Origin: Bacteroidota bacterium
Lineage (GTDB): Bacteria; Bacteroidota; Bacteroidia; Chitinophagales; UBA8649
Direction of reading: 5' to 3'
Length of the DNA: 64,000 nucleotides
Assembly: GCA_002862745.1 (NCBI GenBank)
Contig: PKDX01000002.1
Coordinates: forward strand, 12,707-76,706
Shown piece by piece: positions 460 to 6,836 of this stretch (positions are counted from its first letter, which is position 1; every line of letters starts with the position of its first letter). Below the pieces are notes generated by a model. The model was not told the origin of the DNA, searched no databases, and was given only the letters and a program-made list of their open reading frames with translations. Made by a program: the position numbers and the translations under genes.

Positions 460-483
460 TGCCAAAAAACTGACATTTTGTCA
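460..483. promoter_or_regulatory. Perfect palindrome TGACA-TTT-TGTCA (471-483) with an upstream TGCCA half-site (460-464); candidate operator
   Basis: Read directly: ttgccaaaaaactgacattttgtcat. It overlaps the -33 TTTG of the miaB promoter, and a related element precedes groES. Confidence 0.6.
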
Positions 484-507
484 TAAACGCAAACGGTCTT
501 ACCTTTG
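477..507 (+). promoter_or_regulatory. Bacteroidota primary-sigma promoter for the miaB operon (TTTG-N19-TACCTTTG)
   Basis: TTTG at 477-480 and TACCTTTG at 500-507 with a 19-nt spacer match the -33/-7 consensus TTTG-N19-21-TAnnTTTG. Confidence 0.8.
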
Positions 508-529
508 TTAGTCCTTAAGATTCATTAGA

Positions 530-2002
530 ATGCAAGAGTTAAAAGAAAATAGTCAAGGTCATACTCACAGCCTCCTTTCCGAGGATCGCCAAGGCGAAGT
601 GATTGTTAAAGAGGGTTTGCGCGGTATCCAACCCAATGGTAAAAGCTTCTACATTGAAAGCTATGGATGCCAAATGAATTTCTCTGATAGTGAAATCGTC
701 GCTTCCATCTTATGCGAAAATGGATATGTCTCAACGCCCGACTACAACGAGGCCGACCTTGTTTTGGTCAATACCTGCTCAATTCGTGAGAACGCGGAAC
801 AACGCGTGCGCAATCGCCTCAAAAATTTTCATGTTATTAAGCGACGTAATCCCAACGCATTAATCGGTGTGTTAGGTTGTATGGCAGAACGACTCAAAGA
901 AAAGTTTCTGGAGGAAGAAAAGCTCGTAGATATTGTGGTAGGGCCAGACGCCTATAGACATCTACCGAGTTTAATTACCGAAGCAGAAAGCGGGCAAAAG
1001 GCAGTCAACGTATTGCTGTCTAGAGAAGAAACCTATGCAGATATCAGCCCGGTGCGCCTCTCTAGCAACGGGGTATCTGCCTTTATCTCGATAATGCGTG
1101 GATGCGACAATATGTGCTCTTTCTGCGTCGTGCCCTTTACTCGTGGAAGAGAAAGAAGCCGAGATCCAAAATCCATCGTCGCCGAAGCACAAGACTTGTT
1201 TAACAAGGGGTATCGAGAAGTCACCCTTCTGGGTCAAAATGTAGACTCTTATCGATGGTCGGAAGATCCTACAGTTCGCGGGAAAAAACTCATTGAGTTA
1301 AAGGACACTGACGATGTCTTCAACTTTGCCAATCTTCTCGAAGCCGTCGCGCAAGTTTCGCCGCAACTTCGTGTACGTTTTTCCACCTCACATCCAAAAG
1401 ACATGCTCGATGATGTCTTACACGTGATGGCGAAATACGACAACATCTGTGAATACGTCCATCTGCCTGTGCAAAGCGGTAATTCTGAGGTTTTAGAGCG
1501 TATGAACCGCACCTATGATAGAGCGTGGTACATGAATAGAATTGAGGCGATTCGAAGAATTCTTCCTAACGCTGCGATTTCTACGGATATCATTGCCGGA
1601 TTTTGCGGAGAAACCGAAGAACAACACAAAGAGACCTTGTCCATCATGGAGGAGGTAAAGTACGAGATGGCCTACATGTTCTTTTACTCTGAGCGACCAG
1701 GAACGTTGGCCGCCAAACGATATGAAGATGATATTCCAGAAGAGGTAAAGAAGCGTCGTTTAACCGAGATTATCGATCTCCAAAGAGAGCATTCCCTAGA
1801 GCGCAACAAAGCAGATTTGGGTAAAACATTTGAAGTATTAGTCGAGAAGCCTTCCAAGCGCTCCGAAGATGACCTATGCGGACGCAATAGTCAGAATAAA
1901 ATGATTGTCTTTCCCAAAGGCAACGCTAAAGTAGGAGAATACGTTCAGGTAAAGGTTTCTGACTATAGCCAAGCCATATTAAAAGGAGAAATCGTAGCCT
2001 AA
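530..2002 (+). CDS. miaB: tRNA (N6-isopentenyl adenosine(37)-C2)-methylthiotransferase
   Basis: [12 protein letters not shown]-terminal MTTase domain, radical [15 protein letters not shown] (CxxxCxxC), C-terminal TRAM domain. Confidence 0.96.
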
Positions 2003-3225
2003 TGAATCCCACTTTACAAGGCGTCAAGCAACGATTCGGCATAATTGGAAACTCCCAAGCGCTCAACCATGCTATACAAATTGCAATGCGTGTAGCCCCT
2101 ACAGATTTATCGGTTTTAATCAATGGAGAAAGTGGTGTAGGAAAGGAAGCATTTTCAAAAATCCTTCATCAACTCTCTCCGAGAAAGCACGAAAAATTTA
2201 TTGCGGTAAACTGTGGAGCCATTCCTGAAGGCACGATTGACTCGGAGCTCTTTGGTCATGAAAAAGGTGCCTTTACAGGAGCTCAAGATAAACGCAAAGG
2301 ATACTTTGAAACAGTTAACGGAGGCGCCATTTTTCTCGATGAGATCGGCGAGATGCCTTTGGGAACCCAAGCACGGCTCTTGCGCGTCCTCGAGTCAGGT
2401 GAGTTTATCAAAGTGGGCTCATCTGAAGTCCAGAAGACGAACGTCAGAATCGTTGCTGCAACCAACCGAAATTTGCTAAAAGCAGCAGAACAAGGGAAGT
2501 TTAGAGAAGACTTGTATTACCGATTAAGCACTGTTCCTATTAAGATTCCGGCCCTTCGTGACCGTGGGGATGATATTTTACTGTTGTTTCGAAAGTTTGC
2601 CACTGACTTCGCCGAACGACATCGAAGAAGACCTATTCAACTGAGTGAAGATGCGCAATCCTTACTTCAACGCTATCCATGGCCAGGGAATGTCAGGCAG
2701 CTAAGAAATATGGCGGATCAGCTATCCGTGTTAGCTATTGAGGACATTATTGGCGCTCATGACATTGTTCAACTAATCCCCGATATAAAAGACAACCGAC
2801 TACCGGCATTACGTCAAGAGCAATCTGGTGATAACAGAACGTCCAGCACCAAGGAGGACACGACCCTTCTAGTCAAGATGTTTATCGAGTTGAAGCAGGA
2901 TATTAACGCATTGAAAAAGGTGATTGGTCATACTGATGCTTCGGTTTACCAAGAGGATTTGCCCATAGAAAATCACACCTTTGTACCGAATAAAGAAATG
3001 CAATGGGAGCCTCCAAAAGATGATAGTAAGAATCTCGTTGTGCACTCTAAGGAAGATATCCCAAATGCTGAGGAGATCGAGGACTCTCTTTCCCTGATGG
3101 ATATGGAGAAGCAAATGATAAAAAAGGCTCTAGATAAACATCAGGGACGTAGAAAAAATGCCGCCGAAGAACTTGGAATTTCCGAACGAACGCTTTATCG
3201 AAAAATTAGAGAATACGATATCTAA
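2002..3225 (+). CDS. Sigma54-dependent enhancer-binding protein (AAA+ plus Fis HTH) with no N-terminal sensor or receiver domain
   Basis: Walker A GESGVGKE, intact GAFTGA loop, Walker B FLDEIGE, WPGNVRQL, C-terminal AAEELGISERTLYRK HTH; TAATG coupling to miaB. Confidence 0.93.
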   Translation: MNPTLQGVKQRFGIIGNSQALNHAIQIAMRVAPTDLSVLINGESGVGKEAFSKILHQLSPRKHEKFIAVNCGAIPEGTIDSELFGHEKGAFTGAQDKRKGYFETVNGGAIFLDEIGEMPLGTQARLLRVLESGEFIKVGSSEVQKTNVRIVAATNRNLLKAAEQGKFREDLYYRLSTVPIKIPALRDRGDDILLLFRKFATDFAERHRRRPIQLSEDAQSLLQRYPWPGNVRQLRNMADQLSVLAIEDIIGAHDIVQLIPDIKDNRLPALRQEQSGDNRTSSTKEDTTLLVKMFIELKQDINALKKVIGHTDASVYQEDLPIENHTFVPNKEMQWEPPKDDSKNLVVHSKEDIPNAEEIEDSLSLMDMEKQMIKKALDKHQGRRKNAAEELGISERTLYRKIREYDI

Positions 3226-4837: not shown

Positions 4838-4854
4838 TTGGTATGCTATTCGCT
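4838..4854 (+). promoter_or_regulatory. Sigma54 (RpoN)-type -24/-12 promoter of groES-groEL
   Basis: TTGGTATGCTATTCGCT has GG(4840-41)-N10-GC(4852-53). It differs from TGGCACG-N4-TTGCW only by three pyrimidine transitions and lies 28 nt before the ATG. Confidence 0.62.
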
Positions 4855-4881
4855 TAGTAAGGTTCAAAATTTAGACATACT

Positions 4882-5175
4882 ATGAGTTCAATTAATATAA
4901 ATCCACTAGCAGGTAGTAACAACCGTGTGGTCGTTAAGCCTGCAGATGCTGAAGAAAAATCAGCTGGCGGAATCATTATTCCTGATTCAGCAAAAGAAAA
5001 ACCTCAAAAGGGCCATGTAATGGTAGTGAGTGAAAAGGATGATAAAGGCGTAGCACCTGTTGTTAAAAATGGTGATACTGTTCTTTATGGCAAGTACGCA
5101 GGTACTGAAGTGAATCTCGATGGTGAAACGTACATGATCATGCGCGAATCTGATATTCTCGCAATTGTTAACTAA
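4882..5175 (+). CDS. groES: Co-chaperonin GroES
   Basis: [38 protein letters not shown]. Confidence 0.96.
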
Positions 5176-5192
5176 TATAAATATTAAGCAAA

Positions 5193-6836
5193 ATGGCTAA
5201 AATCATAGAATTTAATGCAGAAGCGCGCGGTCAACTCAAATCAGGTGTTGATCAACTCGCTAATGCTGTAAAAGTAACGTTAGGTCCTAAAGGGCGAAAC
5301 GTAATTATTGAAAAGAAGTTTGGTGCACCAGCTATAACTAAAGATGGAGTATCAGTAGCTAAGGAAATTGAGCTAGAGGATCCCATCGAAAACATGGGAG
5401 CACAAATGGTCAAAGAGGTTGCCTCTAAGACCAACGACGTGGCAGGCGATGGAACTACCACTGCCACCGTGTTAGCGCAGGCTATCATCAATCCAGGTTT
5501 AAAGAGCTTAGCGGCTGGAAGCAATCCAATGGATATGAAACGAGGAATTGACAAAGCCGTAGCTGCTATTGTTGATCAACTCAAAGCCAACTCTGAAGCA
5601 GTAGGTGATTCATCCGAAAAAATCAAACAAGTTGCTGCGATCTCCGCCAATAACGATGACTTCATTGGCGGTCTTATTGCCGATGCTATGGAGAAAGTTG
5701 GGAAAGAAGGTGTAATCACTGTAGAGGAAGCCAAAGGAACAGAGACTTATGTTGATGTTGTTGAGGGTATGCAGTTTGATCGAGGATATCTCTCTCCATA
5801 CTTTGTTACGAATTCGGAAAAAATGGAAACAGAGTTAGACAATCCATTTATCCTTATCCATGACAAGAAGATTTCTGCTATGAAGGATCTTCTTCCAGTT
5901 CTTGAGAAAGTTGCTCAAAGCGGACGTCCTTTGTTAATCATTGCAGAAGACCTAGAGGGAGAGGCTCTAACTACGCTTGTTGTCAATAAACTGCGTGGTA
6001 CTCTTAAGGTTGCTGCCGTAAAGGCTCCAGGATTTGGAGACCGAAGAAAAGCTATGCTACAAGACATCGCAACGCTAACCGGCGGAGAAGTTATCTCTGA
6101 GGAAAGTGGCCTCTCCTTGGAAGGAACGACTGTTGAACAGTTAGGTACTGCTGAAAAAGTAGTAATGGATAAAGACAATACCACCGTGATCAATGGTGCT
6201 GGAGATGATGCGGCCATCAAAGCACGTGTCAACCAAATCAAAGCGCAAATTGAGACGACTACGTCGGACTACGATCGCGAAAAACTTCAAGAGCGTCTAG
6301 CGAAACTTGCTGGAGGAGTTGCCGTTCTATATGTTGGTGCAGCTACTGAAGTTGAAATGAAGGAAAAGAAAGATCGAGTTGACGATGCGCTGCATGCAAC
6401 AAGAGCTGCAGTAGAAGAAGGTATCGTACCTGGAGGAGGGGTTGCTTATATCCGAGCCCTCGATGCGCTATCAAGTGTACAAGGTGTAAACGAAGATGAG
6501 TCCGTGGGTATCGAAGTGATTAAGCGCGCCATCGAAGAGCCTTTACGTCAAATAGCATTCAACGCAGGTGTTGAAGGTTCTGTCATTGTTAACAAGGTAG
6601 CTGAAGGCAAAGGGGACTACGGGTACAATGCACGAGAGAACAAATTCGATAACCTAAAGGCGATTGGTATAATCGATCCTACTAAAGTGGCACGGGTTGC
6701 CCTGGAAAATGCTGCATCTATCGCATCCATGTTGCTCACCACTGAAGCGGTAGTAGCCGATAAGCCTGAAAAAGAGGCTCCAGCTATGCCAGGAGGTGGT
6801 ATGGACGGCATGGGAGGAATGGGCGGTATGATGTAA
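5193..6836 (+). CDS. groEL: Chaperonin GroEL
   Basis: [32 protein letters not shown]-terminal tail. Confidence 0.99.

What the first reader, a model, noticed from the sequence alone, without database searches (positions are those of the whole stretch)
460..6836. Candidate sigma54/enhancer-binding-protein chaperone regulon: groESL under a -24/-12 promoter, with the probable activator encoded just upstream
Seen in sequence: groES has no CIRCE and no good TAnnTTTG box. It has TTGGTATGCTATTCGCT (GG-N10-GC, 4838-4854) 28 nt before its ATG, and upstream of that TGCCA(4791)...C-TGCCA-ATT-TTTCA-G(4802-4816). About 1.7 kb upstream, the miaB operon encodes a bEBP with an intact GAFTGA loop and a Fis HTH. 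That operon's own promoter carries the perfect version of the element (TGCCA...TGACA-TTT-TGTCA). Established: sigma54 holoenzyme needs a GAFTGA-containing bEBP bound at palindromic upstream sites; classical groESL control uses sigma32 or HrcA/CIRCE. Inference: this bEBP activates groESL through sigma54, and the system links chaperone supply to envelope biogenesis genes (lptE, secG) in its operon. Whether this has been described for Bacteroidota needs a literature check.
Basis: partly seen in the sequence, partly recalled or inferred. Interest (0 to 1): 0.82.

Follow-up and report, generated by a model that had tools for sequence, protein, structure and literature searches.

The report
Sigma-54 chaperonin promoter with its likely activator
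In this uncultured Bacteroidota bacterium the groES-groEL chaperonin genes sit behind a conserved sigma-54 promoter; that kind of control is already published for the phylum, but the enhancer motif and the likely activator gene next door appear not to have been described.

Summary
TTGGTATGCTATTCGCT (4838-4854) is a sigma-54 -24/-12 promoter for groES-groEL. It is invariant in 91-96% relatives while flanking bases vary. An equivalent element precedes groES across Bacteroidota: all 20 activator-anchored loci, and 58 of 73 analysable loci in a phylum-wide sample.

TGNCA pentamers are about 4-fold enriched upstream of these promoters. They sit in 10.4-bp register with the -24 element. A perfect TGNCA-N3-TGNCA dyad lies exactly 12 nt upstream of the sigma-54 promoter of htpG in 50 of 65 Chitinophagia. 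The same dyad lies over the -33 region of the sigma-A promoter of the miaB-activator-lptE-secG operon in 35 of 48 orthologous loci, including the window (471-483).

The best reading is that the sensor-less AAA+/Fis-HTH activator (2002-3225) binds these sites, activates the chaperone genes and autoregulates its own operon.

Sigma-54 control of groESL, dnaK, clpB, htpG and lon in Bacteroidota is already published: start sites mapped in Flavobacterium psychrophilum (2021) and a phylum-wide prediction (2025). I found no paper that names the activator or describes the enhancer.

Not tested: rpoN in this genome, DNA binding by the activator, and the proposed link to envelope biogenesis.

The parts
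460..464 (+). Single TGCCA pentamer upstream of the miaB operator
   Evidence: Read. In the closest relatives it varies (TGCCA/TGCTA), so it is weakly supported.
471..483 (.). Perfect dyad TGACA-TTT-TGTCA: the conserved operator over the -33 region of the miaB operon promoter
   Evidence: It is the only perfect TGNCA-N3-TGNCA in the 64 kb. It is invariant in the 63-96% relatives. A perfect dyad is present in 35 of 48 non-identical orthologous miaB upstream regions, against 0.023 expected per 280 nt. In 29 of those 35 it lies 16-21 nt before a perfect TAnnTTTG.
500..507 (+). Bacteroidota sigma-A -7 box TAccTTTG (a -33 TTTG at 476-479 lies inside the dyad); the predicted start is near 512
   Evidence: Read. 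The box is conserved at the same spacing in the orthologous loci. The miaB start site in F. psychrophilum is assigned to sigma-A (PMC9723704 supplement).
530..2002 (+). miaB (radical-SAM tRNA methylthiotransferase), first gene of the operon
   Evidence: Pfam UPF0004 + Radical_SAM + TRAM.
2002..3225 (+). Sigma-54 activator (bEBP). It has no sensor domain. AAA+ domain at residues 14-180 with GAFTGA, then the lid, a conserved helix at about residues 282-309, a variable linker, and a Fis-type HTH at residues 366-405.
   Evidence: Pfam. GAFTGA at nt 2266. The protein scores below every NCBIfam equivalog cutoff, and only the PspF model spans its full length. The conserved helix and variable linker are seen in alignments A3/A4. 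The AF2 model has low confidence.
3225..3731 (+). lptE; its start overlaps the activator's stop codon
   Evidence: Pfam LptE. Coordinates.
3725..4408 (+). Conserved hypothetical protein with a C-terminal TPR-like motif
   Evidence: Only weak TPR hits, below the Pfam cutoff. The C-terminal ~45 residues are conserved in Cytophagia and Saprospiria loci.
4418..4729 (+). secG, last gene of the operon
   Evidence: Pfam SecG. The scan reports no + strand terminator between secG and groES.
4783..4795 (.). One-mismatch dyad AGACA-CTT-TGCCA, starting 56 nt before the TGG of the -24 element
   Evidence: It is invariant in the 91-96% relatives.
4803..4815 (.). One-mismatch dyad TGCCA-ATT-TTTCA, starting 36 nt before the TGG (half-sites at -36 and -28)
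   Evidence: It is conserved in close relatives as TGCCAATTTT(T/A)CA. Its positions fall on the 10.4-bp phase seen in other taxa.
4839..4854 (+). Sigma-54 promoter TGGTAT-GCTAT-TCGCT (GG 4840-41, GC 4852-53); the predicted start is about 4865
   Evidence: It is invariant in the 91-96% relatives while the bases immediately 5' and 3' vary. The 63% relative has TGGCATAAACTATGCA at the equivalent place. An equivalent element is present in all 20 activator-anchored groES loci and in 58 of 73 analysable loci of a phylum-wide sample. TGGTAY is a common -24 variant in Chitinophagia htpG promoters.
4882..5175 (+). groES
   Evidence: Pfam Cpn10.
5193..6836 (+). groEL
   Evidence: Pfam Cpn60_TCP1.
6866..6889 (+). 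Hairpin GCCTCCTTCGGGAGGC followed by a T run: the terminator of groES-groEL
   Evidence: Read. The scan reported the hairpin on the opposite strand.

Best explanation
groES-groEL is a separate transcription unit driven by a sigma-54 promoter (4839-4854). The predicted start is near 4865, and the unit ends at the hairpin at 6866-6889.

Upstream of the promoter lie TGNCA pentamers. Here they form two one-mismatch TGNCA-N3-TGNCA dyads at 4783-4795 and 4803-4815, on the same face of the helix as the -24 element. These pentamers form the enhancer.

The most likely binder is the activator encoded 1.6 kb upstream (2002-3225). It is an AAA+ ATPase with an intact GAFTGA loop and a C-terminal Fis-type helix-turn-helix, and it has no sensor domain. 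Bound to the phased sites, it would assemble into the active ring and use ATP to open the sigma-54 closed complex.

The same protein would bind the perfect dyad at 471-483. That dyad overlaps the -33 region of the sigma-A promoter of its own operon (miaB-activator-lptE-TPR-secG), so the protein would regulate its own synthesis. Repression is the more likely sign.

Because the activator has no sensor domain, its activity is probably set in trans, as PspA sets that of PspF. Free chaperones are one candidate for this control.

Shown here:
- The sequence elements, their conservation, their phasing, and their presence at groES, htpG and the activator operon.

Shown by others:
- Transcription starts at such promoters in a Flavobacterium.

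Inferred:
- Which protein binds TGNCA, the sign of autoregulation, the stress signal, and the presence of rpoN.
For: Promoter:
- The -24/-12 block is invariant in 91-96% relatives while neighbouring bases vary.
- All 20 activator-anchored groES loci carry TGGYAY-N5-nnG 43-150 nt before the ATG.
- In an independent sample chosen only by GroEL similarity, 58 of 73 analysable Bacteroidota loci carry it. This includes Bacteroidales, Sphingobacteriia and Chitinophagia, where groES is not next to the activator operon.
- In F. psychrophilum, 5'-end-mapped starts lie behind the same kind of promoter for groS, clpB and lon, each with a TGNCA-like pentamer 12-15 nt upstream (PMC9723704).

Enhancer:
- TGNCA density is 1.95 per 100 nt upstream of the promoter, against 0.49 in the background.
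- TGNCA positions relative to the -24 TGG have a 10.4-bp period. The amplitude is 0.72, against a maximum of 0.35 in 5000 permutations.
- This replicated in the independent sample: 0.53 against 0.23. It held for both linked and unlinked groES.
- 6 of 20 groES loci have a perfect dyad and 14 of 20 have a dyad with at most one mismatch within 130 nt. Random segments give 1.2% and 5%.

Second regulon member:
- 70 of 75 Chitinophagia htpG genes have TGG[CT]A[CT]-N5-TTG.
- 50 of 65 non-redundant ones have a perfect dyad at exactly -25/-17 from the TGG.

Link to the activator:
- The same dyad is at the activator operon's promoter in 35 of 48 loci, at fixed spacing to the -7 box.
- The activator gene sits in the conserved order miaB-activator-lptE-(TPR)-secG-groES-groEL in Cytophagia, Saprospiria, Flavobacteriia and some Bacteroidales.
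- The activator keeps a conserved HTH, so it should have a conserved DNA site. TGNCA is the only conserved upstream element I found.
Against: - No experiment links this protein to TGNCA.
- rpoN is not in the 64 kb, and the rest of the genome could not be read.
- Bacteroidota genomes carry several activators. There are three in F. psychrophilum, whose authors left the assignment open.
- In Porphyromonas gingivalis an OmpR-type regulator, RprY, binds the groES, dnaK and clpB promoter regions in gel shifts (PMC3646045). Another protein could therefore own these sites.
- A dyad centred about 45 nt before the start is unusually close for a sigma-54 enhancer. It is equally a good position for a repressor.
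- In the window itself the -24 element is the weaker TGGTAT, and both groES dyads have one mismatch.
- No terminator separates secG from groES, so read-through from the sigma-A promoter may add to groESL expression.
- In Flavobacteriia some of the counted pentamers belong to the secG terminator stem.
- The sequences compared are related. The permutation tests therefore overstate independence.
Confidence: 0.6

Rival explanations
1. The sigma-54 promoter is real, but another protein binds the TGNCA sites: a heat-shock repressor, an RprY-like response regulator, or a different sigma-54 activator. On this reading the miaB-activator operon is only one more target of that protein. The linked activator either works at other sites or regulates other genes.
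For: - The dyad overlaps the -33 region at miaB and abuts the -24 element at htpG, both classic operator positions.
- RprY binds the groES, dnaK and clpB promoter regions in P. gingivalis.
- F. psychrophilum has three sigma-54 activators.
Against: - Arrays of sites phased at 10.4 bp and reaching about 120 nt upstream fit assembly of an oligomeric activator better than a simple operator.
- The linked activator keeps a conserved HTH but would then have no visible site.
- The activator gene and groESL are syntenic across several classes.
Confidence: 0.27
2. The -24/-12-like sequence before groES in this window is not used. groESL is transcribed by read-through from the miaB operon or from an unrecognised sigma-A promoter.
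For: - There is no terminator between secG and groES.
- The -24 element is TGGTAT rather than TGGCAC.
- A near match to the sigma-A -7 box (TAcaATTG, 4834-4841) and an E. coli-type TTTTCA-17-TACAAT overlap the region.
Against: - The TA of TAcaATTG and the TACAAT hexamer are not conserved in 91-96% relatives (GGCAAT, TGGAAT, TCGAAT), while TTGGTATGCTATTCGCT is invariant.
- Bacteroidota sigma-A does not use the E. coli consensus.
- The element is found before groES across the phylum.
- TGGTAY is common in htpG promoters.
- Mapped starts exist in F. psychrophilum.
Confidence: 0.05
3. The dyad at miaB is part of the sigma-A promoter itself (an extended -33 or UP-like element) and is not a regulator's binding site.
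For: - In the window it contains the TTTG of a -33 element (476-479).
- It sits at a fixed distance from the -7 box.
Against: - In most orthologous loci the 3-nt spacer is not TTT, so no TTTG is formed (TTC, AGA, CCT and others).
- What is conserved is TG-CA...TG-CA.
- The same dyad recurs at sigma-54 promoters of htpG and groES, where sigma-A is not involved.
Confidence: 0.05

Closest known systems
Sigma-54 (motif SM4) chaperone and protein-quality-control regulon of Flavobacterium psychrophilum (Guerin et al. 2021, PMC9723704), and the 2025 phylum-wide sigma-54 promoter survey (PMC12316311)
   Same: - The same phylum and the same gene order (miaB, sigma-54 activator, lptE, secG, groES, groEL).
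- The same kind of -24/-12 promoter before groES, with a relaxed -12 element.
- A TGNCA pentamer just upstream of the promoter.
   Different: - Those papers map or predict promoters only. They leave the activator unassigned and do not describe an upstream element.
- The window is from an uncultured lineage whose activator is at most 63% identical to any outside its own 87-99% cluster.
- The window's -24 element is TGGTAT.
PspF-PspA phage-shock system of Escherichia coli
   Same: - The activator consists only of an AAA+ domain and an HTH, with no sensor domain.
- The PspF model is the only NCBIfam model that spans the whole protein.
- An activator of this type must be controlled in trans.
- Autoregulation at its own promoter is plausible.
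   Different: - The score is far below the PspF family cutoff (273 against 443.55 bits).
- There is no pspA neighbour.
- The targets are cytoplasmic chaperones.
- About 100 residues (a conserved helix plus a variable linker) separate the AAA+ lid from the HTH.
- The sites lie much closer to the promoter than the PspF sites do (the PspF positions are from my own knowledge).
RpoH (sigma-32) heat-shock regulon with DnaK/GroEL feedback, and the HrcA-CIRCE repressor system
   Same: The same target genes (groESL, htpG, and dnaK/clpB/lon in the Flavobacterium data) and presumably the same physiological role.
   Different: - A different sigma factor family and a different mechanism: an ATP-dependent activator instead of sigma replacement or repression.
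- No CIRCE in the window.
NtrC-type enhancers (several phased dimer sites that nucleate an activator ring)
   Same: - Several sites on one face of the helix upstream of a sigma-54 promoter.
- An activator with a Fis-type HTH.
   Different: - The recognised unit is a 5-bp TGNCA, often as an 8-bp-offset dyad.
- The nearest site is about 45 nt from the start, instead of 100 or more (NtrC positions are from my own knowledge).
- There is no receiver domain.
RprY of Porphyromonas gingivalis (PMC3646045)
   Same: A Bacteroidota regulator shown by gel shift to bind the groES, dnaK and clpB promoter regions.
   Different: - It is an OmpR-type response regulator acting as a repressor, not a sigma-54 activator.
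- That paper gives no binding motif.

Membership tests
Sigma-54-dependent promoter | GG and GC (or G) doublets exactly 10 nt apart within TGGCAC-N5-TTGCW | tested here: met
   The sequence is TGGTAT-GCTAT-TCGCT, with GG at 4840-41 and GC at 4852-53. It departs from the consensus at positions 4 and 6 of the -24 element. The same variant, TGGTAY, is frequent in Chitinophagia htpG promoters.
Sigma-54-dependent promoter | Conserved at the orthologous position in relatives | tested here: met
   It is invariant in close relatives and present in all 20 anchored loci. It is also present in 58 of 73 analysable loci of the phylum-wide sample.
Sigma-54-dependent promoter | Transcription starts about 12 nt after the -12 element and depends on rpoN | not testable with these tools
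   Starts have been mapped only in F. psychrophilum, by others. No rpoN signature was found in the window, and the rest of the genome could not be read.
Bacterial enhancer-binding protein (sigma-54 activator) | AAA+ sigma-54 interaction domain with Walker A, Walker B and the GAFTGA loop | tested here: met
   PF00158 with E = 2.3e-68 over residues 14-180. GESGVGKE, DEIGE and GAFTGA are present and invariant in 33 orthologues.
Bacterial enhancer-binding protein (sigma-54 activator) | C-terminal DNA-binding HTH and cognate upstream sites at target promoters | tested here: inconclusive
   HTH_8 is present at residues 366-405. Conserved TGNCA sites exist at chaperone promoters and at the activator's own operon. 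Binding of this protein to those sites has not been shown.
PspF (phage-shock activator) equivalog | Score above the curated NCBIfam cutoff for TIGR02974 | tested here: not met
   273.1 bits against a cutoff of 443.55. The protein shares the domain architecture only.
HrcA-CIRCE heat-shock control | CIRCE inverted repeat TTAGCACTC-N9-GAGTGCTAA near groES | tested here: not met
   No match in the 64 kb with up to 3 mismatches.
Bacteroidota sigma-A promoter (for groES) | TAnnTTTG -7 box upstream of the gene | tested here: not met
   None in the 300 nt before groES. The near match TAcaATTG is not conserved in close relatives. For miaB this feature is met (500-507).

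The most novel reading that the evidence does not exclude
The miaB-linked, sensor-less activator is the master heat-shock activator of the whole phylum Bacteroidota, a phylum with no described sigma-32 or HrcA-CIRCE heat-shock control that I know of (own knowledge; only CIRCE absence was tested here, and in this window only).

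It works from an unusual enhancer: 5-bp TGNCA units phased every helical turn, with the nearest dyad only about 45 nt from the start. On this reading the ~100-residue region between the AAA+ ring and the HTH acts as a protein tether that replaces DNA looping.

Its activity would be set by titration of free chaperones, perhaps through the conserved helix ERE-LYK-FFDMKKD.

It would also set the level of its own operon, which carries lptE and secG.
Probability: 0.35. Interest if true: 0.75.

Novelty: new member of a known kind. Interest (0 to 1): 0.5.

Why it matters
As far as I know, Bacteroidota lack the textbook heat-shock regulators (own knowledge). The published work shows sigma-54 promoters before their chaperone genes but does not say who activates them or through what DNA site.

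The comparative data here nominate one conserved gene and one short motif, TGNCA-N3-TGNCA, phased with the promoter. The motif is found from gut Bacteroidales to soil Chitinophagia.

This turns an open question into a few simple experiments in strains that are already tractable. It also gives a search pattern for defining the regulon in any Bacteroidota genome.

The very short distance between enhancer and promoter would also interest people who study how sigma-54 activators reach the polymerase.

Tried and rejected
1. A scan of all GTDB genomes for the exact Cytophagia groES promoter (TTGGCACRGGAARTGMT) returned only more groES genes plus chance hits in unrelated phyla such as parE of Acinetobacter and Proteus. 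It gave more groES upstream regions but no other regulon members.

They missed the close relatives. Those were recovered through the protein search and exact look-ups.

3. rpoN, dnaK, clpB, htpG, grpE and lon signatures were sought in the window and not found. The regulon could therefore not be tested within this genome.

4. No dnaK or clpB query from Bacteroidota was available. Only htpG (found by chance in L057) and groEL could be used for phylum-wide tests.

5. The sigma-A reading TAcaATTG and the E. coli-type -35/-10 were rejected for lack of conservation.

6. I considered reading the miaB promoter as a degenerate sigma-54 promoter (cGGTCT-N5-TTG, at the same distance from the dyad as in htpG). 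I rejected it because orthologous miaB promoters lack the GG and carry perfect TAnnTTTG boxes.

7. The AF2 model of the activator has low confidence (mean pLDDT 56.7). I used it only to note a predicted helix at 282-309, a disordered stretch at 311-363 and a confident HTH. No fold search was made.

8. Rfam found nothing relevant near groES.

9. Homologues in Gemmatimonadota lie next to hslVU and clpP-clpX-lon. They appear to carry an N-terminal extension (judged from ORF length and sequence, not checked with Pfam), so I did not count them as orthologues.

Full report
**What is in the window.** Positions 73-7908 carry, all on the + strand:
- a SUI1 gene;
- miaB (530-2002);
- a sigma-54 activator (2002-3225);
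- lptE (3225-3731);
- a small TPR-like ORF (3725-4408);
- secG (4418-4729);
- groES (4882-5175);
- groEL (5193-6836);
- a heptosyltransferase gene.

From miaB to secG the genes overlap or are at most 10 nt apart, so they form one operon. The activator has the AAA+ sigma-54 interaction domain from residue 14, an intact GAFTGA loop and a C-terminal Fis-type HTH. It has no N-terminal sensor domain. There is no CIRCE, no Rfam element, and no TAnnTTTG within 300 nt of groES. The organism is uncultured. The same activator protein is found only on metagenome contigs. Outside a tight 87-99% cluster, the best activator identity is 63%.

**The groES promoter.** In the window alone, GG-N10-GC is weak evidence. 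A pattern of that looseness occurs 5 times in 64 kb against about 2 expected. The other four copies fall inside long ORFs.

Conservation settles the question:
- In four contigs whose activator is 91-96% identical, TTGGTATGCTATTCGCT is invariant, while the six bases before it (TATACA, GAGGCA, TATGGA, TATCGA) and the bases after it vary.
- That variation also removes the only sigma-A-like reading (TAcaATTG) and the E. coli-type TACAAT flagged.
- The 63% relative has a textbook TGGCATAAACTATGCA at the same place.
- All 20 independent loci that were fetched through the activator gene and contain groES have TGGYAY-N5-nnG 43-150 nt before the ATG.
- A separate sample chosen only by GroEL similarity gave 73 analysable Bacteroidota loci, and 58 of them carry the element. 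These include Chitinophagia, Sphingobacteriia, Flavobacteriia and Bacteroidales. The Ignavibacteria in the sample lack it.

In many of these promoters the -12 element reads GA or GT rather than GC. TGGTAY is a common -24 variant.

**What is already known.** Guerin et al. 2021 (PMC9723704) mapped transcription starts in Flavobacterium psychrophilum. They found a -24/-12 motif (their SM4) before groES-groEL, lon, dnaK, grpE-dnaJ, htpG, skp and clpB. The gene order there is the same as here: miaB, activator, lptE, secG, groES. They noted three sigma-54 activators in that genome and left the assignment open. A 2025 survey (PMC12316311) predicted sigma-54 promoters before GroEL, GroES, IbpA, GrpE, DnaJ and DnaK across Bacteroidota and Planctomycetota. 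Seven searches found no paper that names the miaB-linked activator as the regulator or that describes an upstream element.

**The TGNCA element at groES.**
- In the 220 nt upstream of the -24 element of groES in 14 loci, TGNCA occurs 1.95 times per 100 nt, against 0.49 in the surrounding DNA.
- The positions, measured from the TGG of the -24 element, cluster at -17, -27, -37, -48, -59, -69, -79, -91, -100, -110 and -121.
- For 22 distinct sequences, the amplitude at a 10.4-bp period is 0.72. The largest value in 5000 random placements was 0.35. Randomly offsetting each sequence also destroys the signal.
- The GroEL-anchored sample reproduces this: 0.53 against 0.23. The signal holds separately for groES genes linked to the activator operon and for unlinked ones.
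- Around each pentamer the flanks are weakly symmetric (A at -4, T at +8, C/T before, G/A after).
- The window fits the phase: TGCCA at -48, TGCCA at -36 and TTTCA at -28. These form two one-mismatch dyads, 4783-4795 and 4803-4815, both conserved in the close relatives.

**A second regulon member, htpG.** A combined screen asked for a sigma-54-like promoter plus at least three TGNCA in the preceding 130 nt. It was run over about 70 Bacteroidota loci. It picked out 17 groES promoters, six other hits (none before a recognised chaperone gene) and one htpG, in a Parafilimonas contig. Using that HtpG as the query gave 80 Chitinophagia htpG loci. Of 75 analysable loci, 70 have TGG[CT]A[CT]-N5-TTG. 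Of 65 non-redundant ones, 50 have a perfect TGNCA-N3-TGNCA whose halves start exactly 25-26 and 17-18 nt before the TGG. The mapped F. psychrophilum promoters of groS, clpB and lon also show a TGNCA-like pentamer 12-15 nt before the -24 element. The dyad is therefore a feature of chaperone sigma-54 promoters, not of groES alone.

**The dyad at the activator's own operon.** The window's TGACATTTTGTCA (471-483) is the only perfect dyad in 64 kb. It lies 16 nt before a perfect sigma-A -7 box, TAccTTTG (500-507), so it covers roughly -41 to -29. Among 48 non-identical orthologous miaB upstream regions from Chitinophagia, Cytophagia and Saprospiria, 35 have a perfect dyad, where 0.023 is expected per region. 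In 29 of those 35 it sits 16-21 nt before a perfect TAnnTTTG. Most of the remaining Bacteroidota loci have a one-mismatch version. Rhodothermales and Ignavibacteria homologues have none. The 3-nt spacer varies, so the conserved feature is TG-CA...TG-CA and not a -33 TTTG.

**How it most likely works.** The activator keeps a conserved HTH, so it should have a conserved site. TGNCA is the only conserved element upstream of these promoters, and it also marks the activator's own operon. The simplest model is that the activator binds TGNCA units on one face of the helix, assembles next to the sigma-54 holoenzyme and opens the promoter. At its own sigma-A promoter it would compete with the polymerase.

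Two features are unusual:
- The nearest dyad is centred only about 45 nt before the start. In the window the two dyads are about one and three helical turns further upstream.
- About 100 residues separate the AAA+ lid from the HTH. They comprise a conserved helix (consensus ERE-LYK-FFDMKKD-LK; residues 282-309 here) and a linker of variable length and composition.

A flexible tether could let the ring reach the -12 region without a DNA loop. This is my inference, and the structure model is of low confidence.

The protein has no sensor domain and shares its architecture with PspF. Its activity is therefore probably set by a partner protein. Titration by free chaperones is an attractive but untested idea.

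**What remains open.**
- rpoN could not be checked. A second near-canonical -24/-12 in the window, before a YceI-like gene, makes its presence likely.
- No binding data exist.
- RprY in P. gingivalis shows that other regulators touch these promoters.
- Because no terminator follows secG, groESL may also receive read-through transcription.
- The suggested coupling to envelope biogenesis rests only on lptE and secG sharing the operon.

**Verdict.** The regulon itself is known. The enhancer motif, its phasing and the candidate activator appear to be new details. They are worth a short experimental test in a model Bacteroidota species.

Noticed in passing
window 38072-38196: A second near-canonical sigma-54 promoter, TGGCACAGACATTGAA (38127-38142). 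It is intergenic, 53 nt before a YceI-like exported protein (38196-38762), and follows a hairpin plus T-run terminator. It is preceded by an imperfect dyad, TGTCAgatAGACA (38107-38119), at -20/-12, which is half a turn out of the register seen at chaperone genes. It may answer to a different activator.
   Followed up: partly
window 37908-38045: A small ORF encoding a lipoprotein-like peptide (MKKFLPILLAGFVAITVVAC...) with a strongly acidic Glu/Ala-rich tail, just upstream of the YceI promoter.
   Followed up: no
window 36439-37821 (- strand): A second radical-SAM methylthiotransferase (UPF0004 + Radical_SAM, no TRAM hit), next to lgt. It is a paralogue of the miaB at 530-2002.
   Followed up: no
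activator residues about 282-309 (window 2845-2928) and alignments A3/A4: A conserved helix (ERE-I/L-LYK-L-FFDMKKD-x-N/T-D/E-LK) lies between the AAA+ lid and a variable linker. It is specific to this miaB-linked activator family and somewhat diverged in the window protein (EDTTLLVKMFIELKQDINALKK).
   Followed up: partly
L289-L368 (Chitinophagia htpG), L369-L448 (groES) and the F. psychrophilum promoters: In Bacteroidota chaperone promoters the -12 element is often TTGA or TTGT rather than TTGC, and the -24 element is often TGGTAY. Scans that insist on GC at -12 would miss many of them.
   Followed up: partly
L421, L424, L431, L435, L440, L441 (Flavobacteriia groES upstream): The secG terminator stem is itself built from TGCCAGC...GCTGGCA followed by a T run. 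Two of the counted pentamers there belong to a hairpin. It is unclear whether this is a dual use or a coincidence.
   Followed up: no
L036, L039, L043, L233, L254 (Gemmatimonadota) and L244: More distant homologues of the activator have longer N-termini, possibly a receiver domain (judged from ORF length and sequence, no Pfam check). They lie beside hslVU and tig-clpP-clpX-lon. In L244 a homologue is followed by TGGCATCGGGCTTGCT and dnaK. This hints that sigma-54 control of proteostasis genes extends beyond Bacteroidota.
   Followed up: partly
window 4810-4838: An E. coli-type -35/-10 (TTTTCA-17-TACAAT) overlaps the enhancer and the start of the -24 element. The -10 hexamer is not conserved in close relatives.
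   Followed up: yes
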